A DNA stretch of 63,747 nucleotides, counting the filler, from Rhabdomonas costata (lineage: Eukaryota): NCBI GenBank assembly GCA_019059605.1. It is 34 parts of 34 records of this genome, joined end to end, with 100 filler letters (N's around TTAATTAATTAA, not from the genome) between each part and the next. Parts side by side here need not be neighbours in the genome. Positions count along the whole stretch, not along the records: positions 16,912 to 18,687 come from JAHMHO010009189.1; 33 more parts are not named here. One strand, 5' to 3'. The first letter of the stretch is position 1. Each line of letters starts with the position of its first letter. The position numbers and the translations under genes were made by a program. Shown here one piece after another: positions 4,936 through 63,747 of this stretch. The notes under the pieces are model-generated. The model did not search any database. It worked only from the letters and a program-made list of their open reading frames with translations, and had not been told where the DNA came from.

Positions 4936-7900
4936 TGCATCTCACGTTTTCTGCTTGTTTTTTGCTGACATCGCTGCATCAGAGCATTTTCGTGGCTGTA
5001 CTTTCACTTTCAAAGGTCCAAACGTACGGCAACAGTTCTTGTTCTGTGTCCTTTGCTTCTGGAGGAAAACGCATCTTCACCGCATCGATCATATATTAAA
5101 CCATGATTGGATCTTGGGACGTCAAGGTTTATCTGGTTTCCTAAATTCAACGGAGCCAGTTCTTCAATGCTCAACACGTCGCTTCAAAAGCTCGCTATCG
5201 CTCCGCAAAAAAACACGAACAAAAATAGTGTTGTTGAGCAGATGCCCCTGAGGTAAAAAGTAAAAAAAATAATGATAAGAAGCCTCTGCTCTTCTGTATG
5301 TATAAAAGACCCCGGGCCTGCTTCGGCTTTACCCTGAGTGACGGTGCCAATAATGAGTATATAATGGATCAGCTCCGGAGTTCCGGAGCTGAAGTACAGT
5401 GTTCGTCAAAACTGAGTCAAGGAGGGCCCTTCTGGACTTTTGAGAGATGGAAAAGAGCGGGTCATCAAATGATGCACCGACAACACAACCAACTGCTGTT
5501 TTTTTTTCGGTAGCTTTTGCGCTGCCCCCCCCCCCCNNNNNNNNNNNNNNNNNNNNNNNNNNNNNNNNNNNNNNNNNNNNTTAATTAATTAANNNNNNNN
5601 NNNNNNNNNNNNNNNNNNNNNNNNNNNNNNNNNNNNGGGGTGGGGGGCTACTATTTTGCTCTTTTCCGGAGGGGTCTCTCAGCGCGCTTCATTCGGACTT
5701 GCTTTGGCTGGAATAGTCTCTTGGCTGGCGTCAGGGTGCCCTTGCACATAAGAGATTTTGTGCGTGCCCTGGCCCTCGTGGTGTCGCCCCGACGGGAAGC
5801 TGTTGAATTCTGTCCGCAGTGCATTCGAATCCTGTTTGACAGTCTGGTCAACCACCCCCAGCCATCACTTACCACCCACCATTCACTCCTTTGTTGATGC
5901 CCCTGCTTCTTGGGTCTCTCCTTTCCTAGATAAGGTATATTGCTTACCCTTGTTCATTCGTGTGTCGGTGGAAGTCAGAGACCTTGACCCACCCACACAC
6001 ATACACATAGCTGTTTCCTCGCCCCATTGCCTCCGCGGTGCCCATGCCTCCCATAGTGTTTTCTTTTCTTTTTCTTTTTCTTTCTTCATCCTCTTTTTGC
6101 CTTTGGGTCCTTTTGCGTGCATCGCGTATGTACCTAACGTGAACTGCCCACACTCACTCCATCCCCGTCACCGTTGTAGCGTGTACGCGTGCGACCGGGT
6201 CTCTCTTCTAGCATTCCAGCACTTCTCCCCCTCTTTTCTTGCGCCTCCCTGGTGTTTTCCCGTTTCATTTCCCCCCGTTCTCCCCTGCTTGGTCTATCAC
6301 GGCATACAAGTCCCAGTTCTGCATTGCTTCTCATTTCCTCCCATCTCGTCGGCCGTTGTCAAGAATATTTTTTGCGGTTCTTCTTTCGTCTTCGACCAGC
6401 AGCCCACTTCGCAAGATGGAAACGGGGGGGGGGTGAAATCCTTTGTGCAGGATAGTTGTCTAGTTCAGCTCAGCTCCTTCCTCTTCATCGGCGCCCACGC
6501 GGGGCAGCTGGGGACCCTGTTGCAAGCCGTCTGGGCGGACGCTGGTGGGGAAACGTGCCCTCTCTTTCAGATTTCCCATTCAGCTTTCCTTCCTAAGAGA
6601 ATGGCCTGATCGGGCTTCGGGTTCTCCTTGCGAGCTGCCTCATCGCCTGAGTGCGGGGGAAAGAGGGAGCAAATTCCCTCTCCCGGGAAAAGGGCGGGCT
6701 GTCCCTTAGAGCCTTTTTGTGGGAACGTTTCTGAGTTTCAGGGACTTTCCTTTGTTGTTTGCTTTCGTGATTTTCTTGCCGTGCCCGTAAATATTTCCCT
6801 CGTACGTTTGCTTTCCTTTCTTAGGCTCCCCGATGGGTTCTCCCGTGGGGTCCCACCCCATCCCTCGCCAGGGTGTTTCTTAACTCTTCTCTCCCGAGCT
6901 TCGATTGACGATGCAGGCTCTGTGTGCGCCCTGAGATTGCCAATCTCTAACCGGGACCGGGGTGGAAGGGTTTTTTGGTGGAGTTCTGGAAACAAGCATT
7001 GTCCTGGTCCTGGTGACCGCGTTGTGGCGGCCCCCGCGGCAGCAGAAGTATTCATTCCATTGCGAGTCAGGGTATTCCCCAGTTCTTCGTCATTGCTATT
7101 ATCTGGCGGTGTTCCCATCTGAGCATGTCGCCAGCATGTCGCGCTGCCTTTTTTCAGCAGAAAAAGGAATGCCTCTGCTTTGAAAGACCAGCGCTTCTGT
7201 TGCCATATTGGTGAGTGGACCAGCGTGTCTCATAAAGCTGCCATCTCTTCTCTATTTCATTTCTTCTTCCCTTTTCTGGTATCCTTTTCCGTACTGGACC
7301 ATTTACCCGAAGCAATATGTCGTACCTTACCGCTGCTCCGTGCAACGGAAACCTCCAGCTTTCTTACCCCCGTCCCGCTCCCGCCAATCCCGCACGCGGT
7401 ACTCACCCACCAACANNNNNNNNNNNNNNNNNNNNNNNNNNNNNNNNNNNNNNNNNNNNTTAATTAATTAANNNNNNNNNNNNNNNNNNNNNNNNNNNNN
7501 NNNNNNNNNNNNNNNGGGTTGGGGGGAGGGGCAGAACCAGTGGATTCCTCATCAGCTACATGCAATCATTGGCATCACTACCTACCTTTACGATGCTCCT
7601 CGCAACGACGCGAGTGACCCTAGCGATGCGCTGAATCTGATTTGAACCTGATCGGCCGTGACGTTCAGCAAGGGAAAGGAAGTCAGGAACCCTTCCAACA
7701 CGCCACCACACACTCATCACCACACACCATACACCCACCAGACACACACATGCACACACACAGACGCTCACGTGTAACTGGTACATATCAGTTCGAGGGG
7801 TAGTCAAAGCCAGAATGGTGGCTGTGGCTGAGCCATGCCTCCGATTCCACCGCACATTCGCTGGGACACCGTCCGGTCTTAAGCGCCGCCCTTCGCTTGG

Positions 7901-16684: not shown

Positions 16685-16915
16685 GCACACACATACATCA
16701 TACGGCAAAGCCTGCTCAGAGTGCTCTTCACTTCCCCGCAGAGACGTACACAGTAGTGAGTACCTCGCGGTGAGGGTGAGAGTCGCAGTCCAACCGCCCC
16801 CGCCCCACCCCNNNNNNNNNNNNNNNNNNNNNNNNNNNNNNNNNNNNNNNNNNNNTTAATTAATTAANNNNNNNNNNNNNNNNNNNNNNNNNNNNNNNNN
16901 NNNNNNNNNNNGGTG

Positions 16916-17014
16916 GTTGTGGGACAGCGTATGATGGATACGATGGACATGATCAGTTACCCATTGAGCCATGCAGATCATGTCCATCGTATCCATCATA
17001 CGCTGTCCCGCAAC
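16916..17014. repeat. Hairpin with perfect 34-bp arms (16921-16954 / 16976-17009)
   Basis: gggacagcgtatgatggatacgatggacatgatc followed by its exact reverse complement after a 21-nt loop; abuts the contig start. Confidence 0.92.
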
Positions 17015-17260
17015 TGCATCCTGCATCCATCCGGCTTTGGCTTAAGCCGTTTTTTGCTGGCTGTTTTCTAACTTACATTTAGTTTGGAGGGTGAACACAA
17101 CTGCACCAAATTTCATTTGTTGTCCGCTGCATTTATTTTTAATGTGGCATTTTTAATGTGACAGTGGTCGAGGGCTTTGTTCCTTTGTGTGAACGCTTTA
17201 CAAATGATTTCCACAGAAACGTTGATTAGCGTAAGGCAGACCAATTGACTGTTTGCTCAG

Positions 17261-18533
17261 ATTTGGGAGTACGCTGATGCCGAGGATGGGTTCTTCAGCT
17301 TCACCTTCATCTCCTGCTTGTCCCTTTCCCGGGAGAATCAGCCCGTCAATGTTGTCCGCTACGCCCAGAAAGGTCCGCTGATCACGCATGGGGGAGGGGG
17401 GTCCATAAGTTGCCTTCACCATTTGTCCTTCGCTGAGTTGAGGGTCGTTGCAATGCTCTCTCCTGACTTTGTTTCAGGAGAAGCCCTGGTCTCGGCCCAT
17501 GACGATATCCTTTTCTGCGCTCTCGCGGATATGTTTGTTTGTCTTTTTTTGTTTGTTTGTAACATATGGTATCCTGCTCAGCTTCTTTCGCGCAGAGAAT
17601 TAGTACCAATACTGTTGTGGCGTTTGCTATTATGTTTTCAGGAGTAAACGGAATATCTTGATAGCTTTGGCACTTTGTTGGCTGCTTTTTGTTTTCCGCT
17701 TCTGCTATTCTGTCACCTCTGTCACCTTTGCCGTTCTTCGCTCCTTGGGAAACCACCGTTTTCCTTAACTCGCGAGCATCTCTGGGCAACTCCACCCCTA
17801 CACGTGGCCTAGTGGTGTTGTGGAAGAAGCAGGATCGCCCGCCAGGGAGCGCCGCAAGCTCTTCCTCCAGCGCGGGTCTGCTAGAGCAGCACGAGGACCA
17901 GGTTCACAACACGGAGTTCTGGCAGGTTGCCAGACTGTTCAGGTCTTTGCTCCGTGAAATGCTGCTCGTACTACTCGTTAGACTTATCTTGGGATCGGAC
18001 CTCGCACTCCAGCCTCTTGAAGCCAACAGTTTGTCTTTCGTCCGTTTTGAATTCGTTTCTAATAAATCCAACCACTATTCCCGTGCTTTCCGCTTCAAAC
18101 AGCTTGCATAGCACTTTTTTGTTTTTGTTAGCCTTTCAATTCCACTCCAACCTGATTCCGCCCGCCCCACCCCACTCTTCTTTGTCTCCTGCCTCCCCTT
18201 ATTCGATCCTTCCCCGCTTCATTCTTCTGGTTTGATTTGTATTTCCAGCTTTGCCTTCCTGTGCGCTACCCTGAGTAAGCTGTCACGCCAATGTTGTTGT
18301 TGCTGGGTTGTCTTGGTCAATTTTCGGTGTATTGGTGGATGGAAACTCAACGGCCCGTCTCCTTCCCCTTCCCGAGTTCCCTCTATGTTGACCAGTTTCG
18401 CCACTGTCTCCCTCTCGTGGACAAAACAGGGGTCACTCAGACGACGTCTTCAGCCTGGCCATCAGCCCAGACTCCAGGCACATTCTTTCGGGGTCCGTCG
18501 ACTGCAGCACCATGGTGTGGGAACTGGCCTCAG
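17261..18533 (+). CDS. CHAF1B: Chromatin assembly factor 1 p60 subunit (CHAF1B/Cac2/FAS2-like WD40), internal fragment
   Basis: Exons 17261-17372, 17478-17504, 17804-17942 and 18430-18533 give IWEY..PVNVVRYAQKGEALVSAHDGGLVVLWK..NTEFWQVARLFRGHSDDVFSLAISPDSRHILSGSVDCSTMVWE. This is colinear with CAF-1 p60 (VNVVRFSPxGExLASGxD..LWK..ENW....LRGHxEDVYD..S.SVD). HIRA is a less likely alternative. Confidence 0.85.
17505..17803 (+). other. U12-type (minor spliceosomal) AT-AC intron, 299 nt, phase 1
   Basis: Starts ATATCCTTTT, carries TTTTCCTTAAC at 17759-17769 and ends CAC. Excision restores the frame and the homologous motif SAHD-GG-LVVLWK. No GT or GC donor sits at the homology-defined boundary. 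Confidence 0.88.
17759..17769 (+). promoter_or_regulatory. U12-type branch-point sequence TTTTCCTTAAC
   Basis: Exact match to the TTCCTTAAC U12 branch consensus, inside the intron that has a U12 5' site; about 35 nt upstream of the 3' AC. Confidence 0.85.
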
Positions 18534-18895
18534 GTATGTCTGTTTTTTTCTTGGACTTATGGACTCCGCCTGTAGGGCAGGGACAAAGCAACATGACTAG
18601 CAACATGACTTCGCATTCTTCACTGCCCTCTCTCATTCGCCGCGCTGTGAACGGTTATTTCCACCGCTCCTATCTGCACTGCTTCATNNNNNNNNNNNNN
18701 NNNNNNNNNNNNNNNNNNNNNNNNNNNNNNNTTAATTAATTAANNNNNNNNNNNNNNNNNNNNNNNNNNNNNNNNNNNNNNNNNNNNAAATGATGCCTCG
18801 GATTTCGTTACTGTTTTTACGCCCCTTTGTGCCTACATTGTTTCGCGTGCACCCTGAGGAGGAGGAGGAGGAGGAATTCGCTTCTTTTGTTACAG

Positions 18896-24418: not shown

Positions 24419-24791
24419 GGTTTGTGTGGGCCCGGGTGGCAGCCCGCGCGGCGGAGGTGCAGCGGAGCGAGGAGCAGGCCCGGGAGCTGATGCGCTCGAA
24501 GGAGGCGTTCTTCGCGATGGTGAGCCACGAGATGCGGACACCTTTGACGGCGTGCATCGGGATGGCCGAGGCATGCGTGAATATATGAGGAGAGTTGGGC
24601 GGGGGAGGGAGAATCAACACCTATTTGTCCTTCAGCAGAACCGCTGTACAGGGTTTTGAATAAACGTGTCTGGTCTCCTCCCACAGATTCTTTTGGAGAC
24701 CACCAAGTTGGACCCGAAGCAGCGCGAGTGTACCCACAGCATCAGCTGCAGTGGAAATGCGTTGCTGTACCTGATTAACGATGTCCTGGAC
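24419..24791 (+). CDS. Sensor histidine kinase, HisKA (H-box) region, hybrid-kinase type
   Basis: Exon 24419-24570 ends ..SKEAFFAMVSHEMRTPLTACIGMAE. A GC-AG intron spans 24571-24686. Exon 24687-24791 encodes ILLETTKLDPKQRECTHSISCSGNALLYLINDVLD. Confidence 0.92.
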
Positions 24792-26367
24792 GTATGGTTT
24801 TCTTTCTTTCTTCTTTCTTTCTTTTTTGAGCCCACGCATCCGAGGTTGTGGTTTGTGACTTCGTTGCAAATGTCCCTAAGTTGTTGGTGCTGGCGTGGGT
24901 TTGCATGGGGTTGGTTTGGTTTGTGGGTGTGCTTGCTTTGTGCCGGGGATATGTGACTAGCGACCTGCCTGTATCCGTTCAGCCACATGACAGTGAGTCC
25001 TTTCGGATTACCCCTGCCATGCCTTACTACTGCTATGGTTACCAATGCTACCACTGCAGGTTTACTATAACCAGGCCGTTCGCTACTCCGGCGGGCGTGA
25101 AACCATAACTCAAGCCATGGCTACATGGGAGATGCTGCTTGGCCGCTCATCCTCACGGCTGCAAGACACAGTTCTTATACCCTCCCACATAAGACGCTAG
25201 ACGCTAGATCACAGCACCTTGACCAACCTGTGGCGTGTTGATATGACTCGCCTACCCCAGAATCACAGGGGTAGCTAGAGCATTTGAGTGAGGTGTGAAA
25301 GAACCTGTCAGTCACATAGCCCCACCGTTCATCCAAAGCCATCCAGTCTGGTAAATCGCCCCCTTCATGAATCCATAAAGGTGCTTGTCGTATCGCGAGC
25401 TAGGTAGTTTCGTGCTCGGGTGAGTGGAGACAGCGTGTCGTTCATGTCAGCATTGCCTGGGTGCCATTCCTCGGTTTCCAGTAGATTACAGTAGTTGCTG
25501 CTTGCCATCCGGATGACCTTGCGTTCAATCCTTCAAGTGCTTGGCTGAGCTGTCATGCTCGAGCGTCCCCTTTCACACACCTAGGTTTGGATGGCTTGGA
25601 TTTAACTGACGACGTCACTGTTGCCGATTTTTTTTCCTTCACTCATCATCTAAGCTTGGATATCCCGAAGGACATCAGGTGACCCCGAGGGATCCAAAAG
25701 CATGACACCACAAACCCACGCGAATAATAAAACGGTAAATTACACACGGAAGTTCAACCTGACCATCACCCCCAGCCATCACCCTGCGCAACCTACCGCA
25801 ACCACCCCTGAGCCACACCGCACCGATTCACCACCCCAAGCCACCACGACTACCAGAAGACACAGGCCAACACAACCACCCACGCAACCCACCCATGACA
25901 ACAACTGTACTATTAACGCCCACTCCACCAACCTACTCCACGCAACCACCCAACACTCCAATCCACGAAATGCACTGCACACCACGACTCCCGCTTCACC
26001 ACCACCTCCCACTCCCACTCACGCAACCCACCAACTCGGACGCGCACACCACCCAACCCCAGCACTCTGCACCACTCAACACCACCCTCCAACTCACACA
26101 CCCAATCACCACGCCAACTCCAATCCCACTCCCCAACACACCCCTCAACCCACATATGCTACCCTCACACTACCTTTTTTTGAGCCCACCCACACANNNN
26201 NNNNNNNNNNNNNNNNNNNNNNNNNNNNNNNNNNNNNNNNTTAATTAATTAANNNNNNNNNNNNNNNNNNNNNNNNNNNNNNNNNNNNNNNNNNNNTCCC
26301 GAGCATAAGATGGCGAGCGCAGCGACCAACTCTTCCTTGGACTGGGGATGGAGAATGAGGGGCACAC

Positions 26368-28173: not shown

Positions 28174-29775
28174 NGGGGGGTTGGCCCGGCAGCGGAGATC
28201 CGCGCGAGAGGGGGCCGCCGCTCCTTCGTTATCACCAGCCGAGTGCTGCGGACCTGGAAGCTGCTGCAGCGGTGCCGAAAGGCCAGGCAGCCTGTACTTG
28301 TGGTGGGCCCTCCTGGAGTTGGCAAGACCGAGACCCTGATGGCCTTCCTGCAGTGGGTGGGCTTCCGCAGCGAGAAGATCATGCTGGTTAACCTTACCTC
28401 AGAGACTGACTCGGGTTCGCTGATTGGGATGATCCTCCCCGTTGGGGGCAAGTTCAAATGGGTGGACGGTTACGTCGCAGATGCCTTCACCAAGGGCACT
28501 CCTCTGGTCCTCAACAACCTGTCGGAGCCCCGTGCGATGGTCACGGAAGGGCTGAATTCCGTGCTCGAGAGGAACCCGGTGCTGCACGTCGCACAGAATG
28601 AGGAGAAGGTCCCCCGGGTGATGGGACAGGGCTTCTGGCCGGTGGGTGTCATGGACAAGCAGGGCTTGATCTCAGATGCTCTGAAGAATCGGTTTGCGTT
28701 GATCAATCTCGAGCCAGAAAGCAGCCCCACGGCAATCCGAAACCTGGCCGCTTCTTGCCTGCAAGCAATGTGCCAGGCTGCCGTGAGCGCGCTTTATGGT
28801 TGCACTTGCGAATTCTGGCAGCAGGCTCGGTTCCTCCGCTGCGTGGCTACACTGGAGCACTCCCGCATCCCGATTTCGATGCAGCAGCTACTTGTCCTTT
28901 GCCAGATCTTGACCGTGGGCAGGTGCTCCTGTCTCCCAGATGGTGTGGCGAGTCTCTTTCTGGGAAACGTACGCCTGTTCTTCGGACTGGACCCTTCTTC
29001 CACGGAGTGGCCTTGGACCAACGCGGAGTTCTTTGTGAGTCCCCGAAGGCTCGCTGTGCTGGCTGTTGTTTGCGTGGTGATGCAGTGCCGCCAACCCATT
29101 ATTCTGGAGGGGCCCACTAGCGTCGGGAAAACCTCCCTGGTCAAGCTGATTGCGAAGTACCAAAAGCAGTTCCTCCCCAAGAGCTCGGCACCACGGCGGG
29201 TGGTGATAGTGCCCAACTCCATCAACACCACCGTGCAGGACTACACGGGAACCTACGAGCTGGGGAACTTTACGTTTCAGCGTGGGCCTCTGCTGGAAGC
29301 TCTCATGGACGGGCTGGTTTTTATCGCCGATGAGTTGAACCTCGCCCCTGCGTCTGTGCTCGCGTTTTTGGCTCCCGTGCTGAAAGGCCAGACCGTGCTT
29401 CGTCTTCCTGGGGTCCCGTTCTTGGTGCATGTGGCGCCAGGATTCTTGTTCGTGGCCACGCAGAACCCAGCGGGAACCTCCGGGCGCAACGCCCTTCCCC
29501 CTCAGGTGCAGCGACACTGCATTACGATTACTCACCCGGGCTTCCAGCGCGACGAGTTGCTGGACGTCCTCACCCACCAGGTGGCCCCTGTGTTGTCCCC
29601 GAAAAATCCTGAGGCCGCGGTAAAGCAAGCTCGTGAGGTGGCAGAGCAGATGCTTGTGATGCTCAACTGGAACGACAACATAACGCTGAGGCAGTTTCTT
29701 CGCTGGGTAGGCCGAGCCAGGTTTGCGAACTCCGCCGCTTCTCCGGGAATGAGCGCTAGGGGCCTTTTTGTGTAA
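28174..29775 (+). CDS. Midasin/Rea1-like protein, two tandem MoxR-type AAA modules (partial)
   Basis: One open frame of about 1.6 kb contains GPPGVGKT..VNLTSETD..LIG..FKWVDG..EGLNSVLE and EGPTSVGKT..TTVQDYTG..GPLLEA..FIADELNLA..FVATQNP..GRNALP. The true 3' boundary may be a splice donor near 29721. Confidence 0.85.
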   Translation, partial: XGVGPAAEIRARGGRRSFVITSRVLRTWKLLQRCRKARQPVLVVGPPGVGKTETLMAFLQWVGFRSEKIMLVNLTSETDSGSLIGMILPVGGKFKWVDGYVADAFTKGTPLVLNNLSEPRAMVTEGLNSVLERNPVLHVAQNEEKVPRVMGQGFWPVGVMDKQGLISDALKNRFALINLEPESSPTAIRNLAASCLQAMCQAAVSALYGCTCEFWQQARFLRCVATLEHSRIPISMQQLLVLCQILTVGRCSCLPDGVASLFLGNVRLFFGLDPSSTEWPWTNAEFFVSPRRLAVLAVVCVVMQCRQPIILEGPTSVGKTSLVKLIAKYQKQFLPKSSAPRRVVIVPNSINTTVQDYTGTYELGNFTFQRGPLLEALMDGLVFIADELNLAPASVLAFLAPVLKGQTVLRLPGVPFLVHVAPGFLFVATQNPAGTSGRNALPPQVQRHCITITHPGFQRDELLDVLTHQVAPVLSPKNPEAAVKQAREVAEQMLVMLNWNDNITLRQFLRWVGRARFANSAASPGMSARGLFV

Positions 29776-33595: not shown

Positions 33596-33985
33596 ATTTG
33601 GTCGTCAATGGCTCACAATGGCGACCGATGGGGCATAATGGCGTTTTCATCACACTCCGATGGATATGAAGCAAAAAAAAATCCATCGGAGTGTGATGAA
33701 AACACCACNNNNNNNNNNNNNNNNNNNNNNNNNNNNNNNNNNNNNNNNNNNNTTAATTAATTAANNNNNNNNNNNNNNNNNNNNNNNNNNNNNNNNNNNN
33801 NNNNNNNNGTGGGGTTTGCTCCAGAACACCTGTGTATATTGATACAAGCCATAAATCGACCCTTCATATGCCGTGTAACAGACTGGTGTTCTGGAGCAAA
33901 CCCTGGGAATATATGCATTAGCCCTGACAAAGCACTAACACTTCTTTTTGAGCGGTTTAAAACCCCGGTCACGGTTCGGCGTCAC

Positions 33986-49136: not shown

Positions 49137-49278
49137 GGTGTTCTGCGCGCCCCAGCTCTGGTAGATCGAGACCTCTTCCAGGAGGCCGTCGTGGCGGCAC
49201 AGCCCGAAGTCCCCCAGCTTGCACACCCCGTCCTGGCCCATCAGGATATTCGCGGGCTTGACGTCGCGGTGCATTTGC
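49137..49278 (-). CDS. Ser/Thr protein kinase catalytic-loop exon
   Basis: QMHRDVKPANILMGQDGVCKLGDFGLCR; bounded by AG and GT. Confidence 0.9.
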
Positions 49279-57200: not shown

Positions 57201-59462
57201 GTGTGTCGTGGGCAATACTGGAGACGGGAAGGGGATGGGATGCTGAGGGAGACTTGAGCTTTTGTCTGTGCAGTGTATGTTGTTCGCCACCAGTTGATGG
57301 GGGTTTGCTCTCCAGCAATGTGTGGATGAACACTCGAGACGAGTTTCGAGAGTACTCCAAGTCGCACTGGTGCACTGGTGATGCCATGATGGCATCACCA
57401 GTGGCGATCTTGTGTCCTTGCTCTTCCTTTGTTTTGGGTGAGATGATTCCTCCTTCCCTCCAGCCTTCGGTAGGCTGCGCTTAGGGCTCAAAGGGCTCGT
57501 GTAGCGGAGAGAGCCTTCTTTATTTTTTTCCGTGTTTTTTCTCTTCTGTCCGTTTCCCCGCCCGTCGGCAGTAACCGTCGATGGGGATTGTTTTTTTTAC
57601 TGAATATCACCCCCCCCCTCCCCCTATTTGCAGCAGCTGATGAACAACGAAAAACTGTTTGCGCTGATGCAAATGCATTGCACATCTGCTGTCGAGGCAC
57701 CTGCACCTTTCGAGGAACCCATGAGAAGGTGATGGTGGTTCCTGTCACAACGCCACCTGATTTTCAATTATCACTCGCGGCCGTCCGATGAGGGTCACTT
57801 CGGCGGTGTTGATTGTACAGGGTGAGTGTGTGGTTTTACCTGCATGCAAAAATACCTCTGGCTAAGCACGTGCACCTGAACGTTCAGAAAATATTGCTAT
57901 CGCATTGCAGAGGCGAAAATAGCTAAACAGTGAACCCCAGGTCGCGGTGAATCCGTATGTTTGCCAGTTTGTGCCACGTGCCTCCGTCCAATTTACGTCT
58001 TTGTGTCGTAAAGCCGGCGTCTCTCTCCTTTTATGACGTACCCTTTTCATTATGGCGTAGCCCTTTCTTTTGCAGTGTAGCGAGGTGTGCAATTTTTGAA
58101 GTGCCCCCCACCACAANNNNNNNNNNNNNNNNNNNNNNNNNNNNNNNNNNNNNNNNNNNNTTAATTAATTAANNNNNNNNNNNNNNNNNNNNNNNNNNNN
58201 NNNNNNNNNNNNNNNNTGTTGTGGTGGGATGAAGCTGGGATGTGTAGCTTTCCTTGGGGATCTCTGGCTTCTTTTAGGGAAGGGAAGCAGTACTGGTACC
58301 CGGTGTGGACGGGCGCGCCTGCCCCGACTCCAGCGGCTGTGGCGGGTATGCCTCTCTTTGTCAGCAAGTCAAGCAGTTCCGCACTGAGCGGCTGTAAACG
58401 GGAGATGGGTGCCTAATACTAATATTTTGCCCTGCAGAATTCTGATTGTTGATCACTGCCAGTTGCCCATGTTTTTTCTTTGCCCACGCGTGCCGACTTT
58501 CAGGGTTCGAAATATTTATCTCTGTTCTTCAGGATTGCTAAAATGGCAGATGGCAGAGAAAAGGGTTAAGGGTTAAAATGGGTTAAGTTCAAAAACTTTC
58601 TCATGTGCTTGTTGCTGTATTGTCATTCGTGAAGGGTCAATCTGTCAATCTGTCAATCTGTTTCCACAACCGCAGCGTCGCCACAGCCATCGGCTTCGGC
58701 ACCAGCAAGCTCGGCTGAGTCAGCATCAGGTGTAAATGGCCCCCTCCCTCCCCTCCCTCATTCTACGGTATTTCACGAAGCTATTTTATGCTGGTTCAGA
58801 AAGGCGTGGCTCCTTGGATGGTACTGCCGGGTTTCTGGGGTATCTTTTTCTGATGCGGGTTGTTTATACATTGCAGAGATGAGCTTCACCGCTTGAGTTA
58901 TGCTCCTTTTCCTCAGCGATACCGCCCGCTCCAGCGCGATCTCCAGAGTCCAGCCCGACCCAAGGGGAGAAGAAAGAGTCAGGTGAGTGAAAGAGATGAG
59001 CTGAGTTTGAAAATCTGTGGTCTGGCATCCAACTTTTGCTGATTTATGTTAAGCTATCGAAGGATTTCGAAGGATACACCACAAATACGGGCCCATCACA
59101 AGACACATCAGTTCGCCGCAATCGGAACCGAATCGCCGAAATAGAAAAGTCGAACTGGAATACTAATACAGCAAAGGAACATCGGCTGTCGTCACTTTAT
59201 TGCAATTCACTGTTTTTCACATGCGGCATCATTTCCATATGCTGATGTTTTTTTTACTCTGGGGTTTCAATGACAGTGGCCGACCCGGGTATATAAGTAA
59301 CAGGGAAATTCCAATGGGAGGTTAGAGTGCACCTGTTCACAGGTGTTTCCGGTGAAAACTATTTGTAAGGGAACAGGTAAAAACAGGCGAAGGGGCTGCT
59401 TAGCGCTACCGCGTCATTTTCTGTTGGCTTGGCAAGGTGTTGGTGGGTGGGTGGATTTTCAG

Positions 59463-63038: not shown

Positions 63039-63747
63039 GTTTCTTTTTTCTCCACTTCCTCTCGCTCATACATTGTTTGCGCGGAAGTGTGGGAGGATGT
63101 ATGAAAGAGCACAATGGTAAACAGCGTAAAACAGAGATAAAGTTCTCATTGCCCATGATGTTGGGTGTGCTATGTTCTATGCATTAGGTGTACCTCATTC
63201 TGACCGACAATGGTCACGATGGAAAACACTGAAGACAGGGTGACAGAAAAGGGTACCTTGCCACCGTGCATTTGCAAAGATGTTGTGTGCCTTGCGCACG
63301 TTTTGTTCTTCTGTGTGGCGGTATTGCTCCTGTTCCTGCGGGGATAGGTACTGGTCCTCCGGCAGGAGATCAACAAGCACCTCATAAAGCAAACTGTCAA
63401 CGGCCTTTCCTCCGCCACCCAGGTGAGCGTCCGCCCGGCCCCACCCCCCTCCACTCTCGTCGCGTGCGCGCCATAAGACAATTTCCGACCTTGCGCACAT
63501 CGTTTCTTTGTTTACATCAGCTTGCACAGGACCCCTTAGCATTCCTCTTTACTTTTGTACGGATCCTTTCGGATAATCAGCAAAAGTTGGACAACAACCT
63601 GAGGCGTATCCTTGCTCATGTGGAGTTTGCCTTTTCCACCCCACCGCCACTTTCGACTCTACTATGCTCTATGATCGTATCAATTCAGTTGCAGTGTAAA
63701 CTCTTGGAGTGGAAAGTGGCGGTGGGGTGGAAAAGGCAAACACCAAC

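What the first reader, a model, noticed from the sequence alone, without database searches (positions are those of the whole stretch)
17505..17803. U12-type AT-AC intron in a probable euglenid: evidence for a minor spliceosome in Euglenozoa
Seen: CAF-1 p60 homology stops at GAC G| and resumes at |GT GGC CTA GTG. The intervening 299 nt begin ATATCCTTTT, contain TTTTCCTTAAC (17759-17769) and end CAC. Removing them restores the frame and gives ..SAHDGGLVVLWK... Established: RTATCCTT and TTCCTTAAC are the U11/U6atac and U12 recognition sites, and kinetoplastids lack the minor spliceosome. Euglenid nonconventional introns have a different signature (paired ends, CAG near +4 and CTG near -8), which is absent here. 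Inference: this organism has a working U11/U12/U4atac/U6atac system, which to my knowledge is undescribed in euglenids. The host assignment rests on other contigs (articulin, JGT).
Basis: partly seen in the sequence, partly recalled or inferred. Interest (0 to 1): 0.93.

Follow-up and report, generated by a model that had tools for sequence, protein, structure and literature searches.

The report
U12-type AT-AC intron in a euglenid
A gene for a chromatin-assembly protein in the euglenid Rhabdomonas costata carries an intron with the exact signals read by the rare "minor" spliceosome, a machine not so far reported from this branch of eukaryotes.

Summary
The window is 34 short contigs joined by linkers. 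Contig 16912-18687 holds four exons of a CAF-1 p60 (CHAF1B-like) WD40 gene. Joining the exons reproduces residues 42-168 of EukProt protein RCo029942 (126 of 127 identical). That protein was predicted from the Rhabdomonas costata transcriptome. Only removal of exactly 17505-17803 gives its DGG junction.

This 299-nt intron starts ATATCCTTTT, holds TTCCTTAAC at 17761-17769 and ends AC. Those are the two defining U12-type motifs. The flanking introns are ordinary GT-AG. The protein groups with Euglena orthologues (SH-aLRT 100), so the host is a euglenid.

The intron fails the published Euglena nonconventional-intron code, and its ends do not pair.

One oddity: the branch site lies 35 nt from the 3' end, against an optimum of 11-13 nt, and four nearer AG/AC dinucleotides are skipped.

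No minor snRNA or minor-specific protein could be tested. No genome, reads or queries were on hand, so a working minor spliceosome remains an inference.

My searches of open literature found no report of U12 introns in euglenids. A 2023 pan-eukaryotic survey states there is no evidence in Discoba.

The parts
17261..17372 (+). Exon A of the CAF-1 p60 gene (112 nt), preceded by an AG acceptor at 17259-17260
   Evidence: Matches P0005 from residue 42 on, with one difference (genome A, transcript T at residue 46)
17373..17477 (+). Conventional GT-AG intron, 105 nt, with a pyrimidine tract before the AG
   Evidence: Borders printed; needed to join QK|GE as in P0005
17478..17504 (+). 27-nt micro-exon B, flanked by a U2-type acceptor and the U12-type donor
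   Evidence: encodes the stretch up to SAHD plus the first base of the next codon
17505..17803 (+). AT-AC intron, 299 nt, phase 1: the U12-type candidate
   Evidence: Only these borders give the DGG junction of P0005
17505..17513 (+). 5' splice-site motif ATATCCTTT
   Evidence: the only ATATCCTT in the window
17759..17770 (+). Branch-site motif TTTTCCTTAACT; presumed branch A at 17768 (or 17767), 35-36 nt from the last intron base
   Evidence: the only TTCCTTAAC in the window; distances; inside intronIC's -55 to -5 scan region
17802..17803 (+). Terminal AC of the intron
17804..17942 (+). Exon C (139 nt)
   Evidence: 45 of 45 residues identical to P0005
17943..18429 (+). Conventional GT-AG intron, 487 nt
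18430..18533 (+). Exon D (104 nt), followed by a GTATGT donor at 18534; the next intron is cut by the contig end at 18687
   Evidence: Identical to P0005 residues 134-168

Best explanation
Bases 17505-17803 are a genuine U12-type (minor-class) AT-AC spliceosomal intron in the CAF-1 p60 gene of the euglenid Rhabdomonas costata.

Inferred mechanism, from what is established in animals, plants and amoebozoans:
- U11 and then U6atac pair with ATATCCTTT at the donor.
- U12 pairs with TTCCTTAAC and bulges an A, which attacks the donor.
- The exons are joined at the AC at 17803.

Shown here: the exact excision in mRNA, both motifs and the euglenid host. Inferred: that minor snRNPs exist in this organism and do the work. 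If so, the euglenozoan ancestor had a minor spliceosome, and kinetoplastids and diplonemids lost it.
For: - Junction: exon C retrieved one protein, RCo029942, at 100% identity (1 hit among 105 candidates). It reads SAHDGGLVVLWKK across the junction.
- Gene model: the four-exon model equals its residues 42-168, 126 of 127 identical. Only the AC at 17803 reproduces it.
- Independent source: RCo proteins were predicted from the R. costata transcriptome, and the genome was too fragmented for gene prediction (abstract and passages of PMC8219788). The single A/T residue difference also shows the protein was not derived from this contig.
- Motifs: ATATCCTTTT at +1 and TTCCTTAAC within the last 45 nt. 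[quoted passage not shown]
- Other typical features: the intron is phase 1, and the gene belongs to the replication-linked 'information processing' class in which U12 introns are enriched.
- Host: the five best homologues (44-57% identity, E 1e-124 to 1e-159) include E. gracilis EG_transcript_8712. The next best is a plant at 37%, E 1e-64. In a tree of 23 of the 102 hits, the six form one group with SH-aLRT 100.
- Junction region: H86, D87, G89 and W94 are invariant in 6 of 6 sequences, with no insertion.
- Neighbouring introns are plain GT-AG, so the organism's ordinary introns look different.
Against: - The branch motif lies 35 nt from the 3' splice site, against an optimum of 11-13 nt (PMC3584512). 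One AG (8 nt) and three AC (22, 27, 33 nt) are passed over.
- This is a single intron. No second U12-like intron exists in the window: among 35 [AG]TATCC sites in the 34 contigs, an exact branch motif downstream occurs only in this contig. One weak pairing (24971/25634) proved to be a pyrimidine tract of a GT-AG intron.
- No minor snRNA was found in the window's 63.7 kb, which is too little sequence to weigh.
- No minor-specific protein could be searched.
- Sister lineages lack the system: Diplonema has no U11/U12/U4atac/U6atac RNAs (PMC10161547; PMC12621601). A survey of over 3000 genomes found no evidence in Discoba (PMC10639083).
- The protein evidence shows the productive mRNA only. Use of the nearer AC sites would shift the frame, so such transcripts would not appear in a protein set.
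Confidence: 0.8

Rival explanations
1. It is a euglenid nonconventional intron, removed by the unknown non-spliceosomal route, that resembles a U12 intron by accident.
For: Euglenids have many introns without GT-AG borders. The R. costata paper classed every non-GT(GC)/AG intron as nonconventional and never mentions U12 (0 occurrences of 'U12' or 'minor').
Against: - The published Euglena code is N3-CDG at the 5' end and CHG-N5-6 before a purine exon base (PMC12501133). Here +4 to +6 is TCC, and -8 to -6 and -9 to -7 are both CCC.
- The fold is no more stable than shuffles: -75 against -71.4 +/- 4.8 kcal/mol, z -0.76, with 20 of 100 shuffles as good. It does not pair the intron ends.
- The intron is not 'slidable'.
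- Chance placement of both U12 motifs is about 1e-9.
Confidence: 0.04
2. It is a relic U12-type intron in a lineage whose minor spliceosome is gone or reduced, now removed by the major spliceosome or a hybrid machinery. The long branch-to-3' distance would be one sign of this.
For: The 35-nt spacing is more like a U2-type intron. The last 14 nt are C-rich. Relatives lack minor snRNAs.
Against: Both motifs are letter-perfect. Without U11/U6atac/U12 pairing nothing would keep them so. From established knowledge, an A at +1 and a C at the last base are poor substrates for the major spliceosome unless the donor is U2-like, and this donor is not.
Confidence: 0.1
3. The contig comes from a contaminating eukaryote or is an assembly artefact, so it says nothing about euglenids.
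For: The culture was not axenic and some transcripts were contaminants. The contig starts with a 39-nt hairpin typical of assembly ends.
Against: - The encoded protein groups with Euglena sequences at SH-aLRT 100 and is far from all others.
- Genome and transcriptome give the same exons independently.
- The hairpin lies about 250 nt upstream of the first exon.
Confidence: 0.03

Closest known systems
U12-type AT-AC introns of animals, plants, Acanthamoeba, Physarum and oomycetes
   Same: Same donor motif (ATATCCTT) and branch motif (TTCCTTAAC), AT-AC ends and non-zero phase. A single such intron among GT-AG introns, in a replication-linked gene.
   Different: The host lineage (Euglenida, Discoba) has no reported minor spliceosome. 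The branch-to-3' distance is 35 nt instead of about 11-13, with nearer AC/AG sites skipped. The upstream exon is only 27 nt.
Euglenid nonconventional introns
   Same: Same organism group; borders are not GT-AG.
   Different: No CAG/CTG-type motif at +4 and -8, no pairing of the ends, and unambiguous borders. It has strong spliceosomal-type donor and branch signals instead.
U2-type AT-AC introns (rare, removed by the major spliceosome)
   Same: AT-AC ends; long branch-to-3' spacing.
   Different: As recalled, those have a U2-like donor after the AT and no extended branch motif. This one has the U12 donor and branch motifs.

Membership tests
U12-type (minor-class) spliceosomal intron | Extended conserved 5' splice site, RTATCCTT from +1 (consensus recalled; examples in PMC7367187 Table 1) | tested here: met
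   ATATCCTTTT at 17505-17514
U12-type (minor-class) spliceosomal intron | Extended branch-site motif TTCCTTRAY near the 3' end (intronIC scans -55 to -5) | tested here: met
   TTCCTTAAC at 17761-17769, i.e. -43 to -35
U12-type (minor-class) spliceosomal intron | AT-AC or GT-AG ends, removed precisely from mRNA | tested here: met
   AT...AC; the junction is reproduced by transcriptome-derived P0005
U12-type (minor-class) spliceosomal intron | Typical but not defining: short branch-to-3' distance, optimum 11-13 nt | tested here: not met
   35 nt from A17768. [quoted passage not shown]
U12-type (minor-class) spliceosomal intron | Typical: no distinct polypyrimidine tract | tested here: inconclusive
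   No T run. By my count, 21 of the 34 nt after the branch motif are pyrimidines, mostly C.
U12-type (minor-class) spliceosomal intron | Excision depends on U11, U12, U4atac and U6atac snRNPs | not testable with these tools
The window has no snRNA hit.
Euglenid nonconventional intron | 5' N3-CDG and CHG-N5-6 before a purine exon base (PMC12501133) | tested here: not met
   +4 to +6 is TCC; -8 to -6 and -9 to -7 are CCC. Only the exon purine (G17804) fits.
Euglenid nonconventional intron | Base pairing that brings the intron ends together | tested here: not met
   MFE z-score -0.76; the ends are not paired with each other
CAF-1 p60 / CHAF1B-HIR1 beta-propeller protein (host gene) | WD40 propeller with best matches named chromatin assembly factor 1 subunit B | tested here: met
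   P0005 hits carry WD40 (PF00400) and related beta-propeller Pfam families. Named hits include 'Chromatin assembly factor 1 subunit' and 'CAF1B/HIR1 beta-propeller'.

The most novel reading that the evidence does not exclude
Euglenids keep a complete, working minor spliceosome, the first in Discoba. It tolerates a branch site 35 nt from the 3' splice site. Part of what has been catalogued as 'nonconventional' introns in euglenids is in fact U12-type. The euglenozoan ancestor therefore had three intron-removal systems side by side, and kinetoplastids and diplonemids each lost the minor one.
Probability: 0.7. Interest if true: 0.85.

Novelty: new member of a known kind. Interest (0 to 1): 0.8.

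Why it matters
The minor spliceosome is inferred for the last eukaryotic common ancestor, but its map has a hole at Discoba.
- A 2008 snRNA screen could reach no conclusion for Euglenozoa (PMC2396436).
- A 2023 survey of over 3000 genomes reports no evidence at all in Discoba, naming Trypanosoma and Leishmania (PMC10639083).
- Diplonemids lack the minor snRNAs.

A transcript-confirmed intron with both U12 signals in a euglenid would fill that hole. It would date the losses within Euglenozoa and strengthen the ancestral inference wherever the eukaryote root lies.

It also bears on euglenid intron biology. Surveys there sort introns only into GT-AG and 'nonconventional', so U12-type introns may be hidden in the second bin.

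The 35-nt branch spacing and the 27-nt exon shared with a U2-type intron are testable oddities of recognition.

Tried and rejected
- Whole genome: none is held. Searches for minor snRNAs were therefore limited to the window: 0 matches at gathering score. At E up to 5 there were 12 weak matches: 9 hairpin-like miRNA rows, one bacterial sRNA (CC0196), SCARNA2 and snoU82P. None was a spliceosomal snRNA.
- Minor-spliceosome proteins: I had no permitted query sequence, so this was not searched. One protein search was left unused.
- Second U12-like intron in the window: none. GTATCCTT sites at 7279, 8420, 59077 and 63606 have no convincing coding exon upstream and no branch motif downstream. ATATCC at 49249 lies inside a kinase motif. 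The pairing 24971/25634 is a pyrimidine tract of a GT-AG intron in a histidine-kinase-like gene.
- Orthologous genomic loci: one metagenome scan gave 8 loci, none close (best segment 49% or less). The loci that cover the site read straight through it (L001, L002, L003, and L005 as inspected; L006/L007 are near-copies of L005). So the position is not shared there. L004 and L008 do not cover it.
- Pfam scan of the 10 longest of 274 open frames: only a dynein-type AAA protein and one weak propeller hit.
- Literature: searches found no report of U12 introns or minor snRNAs in euglenids, and none linking CHAF1B to minor introns. Subscription papers and supplements were not visible.

Full report
**What the window is.** The 63,747 bases are 34 contigs of about 1.78 kb, joined by N44-TTAATTAATTAA-N44 linkers. 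The finding lies in the contig at 16912-18687. No whole genome is held for it.

**The observation.** The sequence is as described.
- The exon ends CATGACG at 17504.
- The intron starts ATATCCTTTT at 17505.
- TTTTCCTTAAC lies at 17759-17769.
- The intron ends CTACAC at 17803.
- The next exon starts GTGGCC at 17804.

I built the gene model from the three reading frames:

| Feature | Coordinates | Length | Type |
|---|---|---|---|
| Exon A | 17261-17372 | 112 nt | coding |
| Intron 1 | 17373-17477 | 105 nt | GT-AG |
| Exon B | 17478-17504 | 27 nt | coding |
| Intron 2 | 17505-17803 | 299 nt | AT-AC, phase 1 |
| Exon C | 17804-17942 | 139 nt | coding |
| Intron 3 | 17943-18429 | 487 nt | GT-AG |
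| Exon D | 18430-18533 | 104 nt | coding |

A GTATGT donor follows exon D.

**Independent proof of the junction.** Exon C (45 aa) was searched against longer proteins. It retrieved one protein among 105 candidates: EukProt RCo029942 (P0005), 507 aa, 100% identical, in a cluster of one member. Its sequence reads ...RYAQKGEALVSAHDGGLVVLWKKQDR....
- The four-exon model translates to 127 residues that equal P0005 residues 42-168 at 126 positions. The one difference is residue 46.
- Eight AG/AC dinucleotides between 17770 and 17829 were tried as 3' ends. Only 17803 reproduces the protein.
- RCo identifiers are those of the Rhabdomonas costata transcriptome. The paper states that 39,456 proteins were predicted from the transcriptome and that the genome was too fragmented for gene prediction (PMC8219788; abstract, passages and section 7 seen).
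- A 507-aa protein cannot come from a 1.8-kb contig, and the single residue difference shows the two data sets are independent.

So the mRNA lacks exactly 17505-17803.

**Whose gene it is.** A full-length search scored 8000 candidates and gave 102 proteins at E <= 1e-10.
- The five best after the query itself are 44-57% identical (E 1e-124 to 1e-159).
- They include EG_transcript_8712, a prefix the R. costata paper uses for E. gracilis. They also include a GGOE transcriptome entry, which I recall as Euglena longa but did not check.
- The next hit is a plant at 37% and E 1e-64.
- In a quick maximum-likelihood tree of 23 of the 102 hits, which I picked for names and coverage, the six form one group with SH-aLRT 100.
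- In their alignment, H86, D87, G89 and W94 around the junction are invariant in 6 of 6, with no insertion.

The host is a euglenid. The gene is the CAF-1 p60 / CHAF1B-type propeller, as the named hits show.

[quoted passage not shown] It also says AT-AC and GT-AG are the usual ends, and that a distinct pyrimidine tract is lacking (PMC3584512 section 4).
- The consensus letters (RTATCCTT; TTCCTTRAY) are recalled. Example rows in PMC7367187 Table 1 agree with them.
- This intron has ATATCCTTTT at +1 and TTCCTTAAC at -43 to -35. That is inside the -55 to -5 region that intronIC scans.
- Each motif occurs once in the whole window, with 0.76 and 0.48 expected from shuffles. The counts mean little, but the placement does: about 6e-6 for the donor position times about 1.6e-4 for the branch region, or roughly 1e-9 per intron (my arithmetic).
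- The two neighbouring introns have plain GT-AG ends with pyrimidine tracts.
- The intron is phase 1, and the gene belongs to the replication-linked class in which U12 introns are enriched.

**The euglenid alternative.** Euglena nonconventional introns obey a tested code: N3-CDG at the 5' end and CHG-N5-6 before a purine exon base, with pairing next to these motifs (PMC12501133 passages).
- Here +4 to +6 is TCC, and -8 to -6 and -9 to -7 are both CCC.
- The fold of the intron with 10-nt flanks is -75 kcal/mol, against -71.35 +/- 4.82 for 100 shuffles (z -0.76). Twenty shuffles fold at least as well, and the fold does not pair the ends.
- The borders cannot slide.

This rival is rejected.

**What does not fit.** The branch adenosine (17768, or 17767) is 35-36 nt from the last intron base. 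The stated optimum is 11-13 nt. An AG at 8 nt and AC dinucleotides at 22, 27 and 33 nt are passed over.
- The three AC sites would shift the frame, so transcripts using them would be invisible in a protein set.
- The AG site would add nine residues in frame, and no such isoform is in the cluster.
- No better branch-like motif lies 10-20 nt from the 3' end (my reading).
- Either the euglenid machinery tolerates long spacing, or 3' site choice differs, or a reduced machinery is at work.

**What could not be shown.**
- No minor snRNA was found in the window, but 63.7 kb of a roughly 100-Mb genome says nothing.
- No second U12-like intron is present in the 34 contigs.
- Minor-specific proteins could not be searched for lack of a permitted query.
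- A metagenome scan gave 8 loci, none from a close relative. Those that cover the site have no intron there, so the position is not known to be shared.

**What is in print.** In the open library I found no report of U12-type introns or minor snRNAs in euglenids.
- The R. costata paper has 0 occurrences of 'U12' or 'minor'. It bins every non-GT(GC)/AG intron as nonconventional: 1164 predicted, 105 contigs supported by reads, 26 inspected and 7 retained.
- The E. gracilis intron survey PMC11170887 has 0 occurrences of U12, AT-AC or minor.
- Diplonema lacks AT-AC introns and the four minor snRNAs (PMC10161547). Other diplonemids have only U2-type snRNAs (PMC12621601).
- The 2008 snRNA screen could not conclude for Euglenozoa (PMC2396436).
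- No paper links CHAF1B with minor introns (search 42).
- Subscription journals were not searchable.

**Verdict.** This is a transcript-confirmed intron with both defining U12 signals in a euglenid gene. The intron is a new member of a known kind. The step from it to a working minor spliceosome is a strong inference, not a demonstration (confidence 0.8). The long branch spacing is the one feature that could point to something different.

Noticed in passing
window 1-63747: The window is not one locus. It is 34 contigs of about 1.78 kb joined by N44-TTAATTAATTAA-N44 linkers, so neighbouring 'genes' are not neighbours in the genome.
   Followed up: yes
16916-17014; 63621-63745; 33639-33707: Near-perfect hairpins (27-39 nt arms, 95-97% complementary) sit at contig ends. 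They give weak miRNA-like Rfam hits. They are probably assembly or library artefacts rather than genes.
   Followed up: partly
17273 (codon 17273-17275): The genome encodes Ala where the transcript-derived protein has Thr (residue 46). This could be an allele, a paralogue or an error.
   Followed up: no
17569-17576: A second U12-like donor string (GTATCCTG) lies inside the AT-AC intron, 64 nt from its start. Use as an alternative donor is untested.
   Followed up: no
28177-29772 (+): An uninterrupted 532-codon frame carries dynein-related AAA domains (AAA_5, E 6e-26; AAA_7), midasin/dynein-like. It fills almost a whole contig without introns.
   Followed up: partly
24421-24793 (+), contig 24419-26196: Histidine-kinase-like exons (HisKA-type ...FFAMVSHEMRTPL... 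and ...LINDVLD) are split by GT-AG introns. The downstream half of the contig is an A/C-rich low-complexity stretch.
   Followed up: partly
about 63570-63590 (+) and about 59030-59050 (-): The same 17-mer (AATCAGCAAAAGTTGGA) lies next to GTATCCTT strings in two different contigs. It may be a dispersed repeat.
   Followed up: no
about 49230-49270 (-): A protein-kinase catalytic-loop motif (HRDVKPANILMG) is encoded here. The ATATCC at 49249 is part of this coding sequence, not a splice site.
   Followed up: partly
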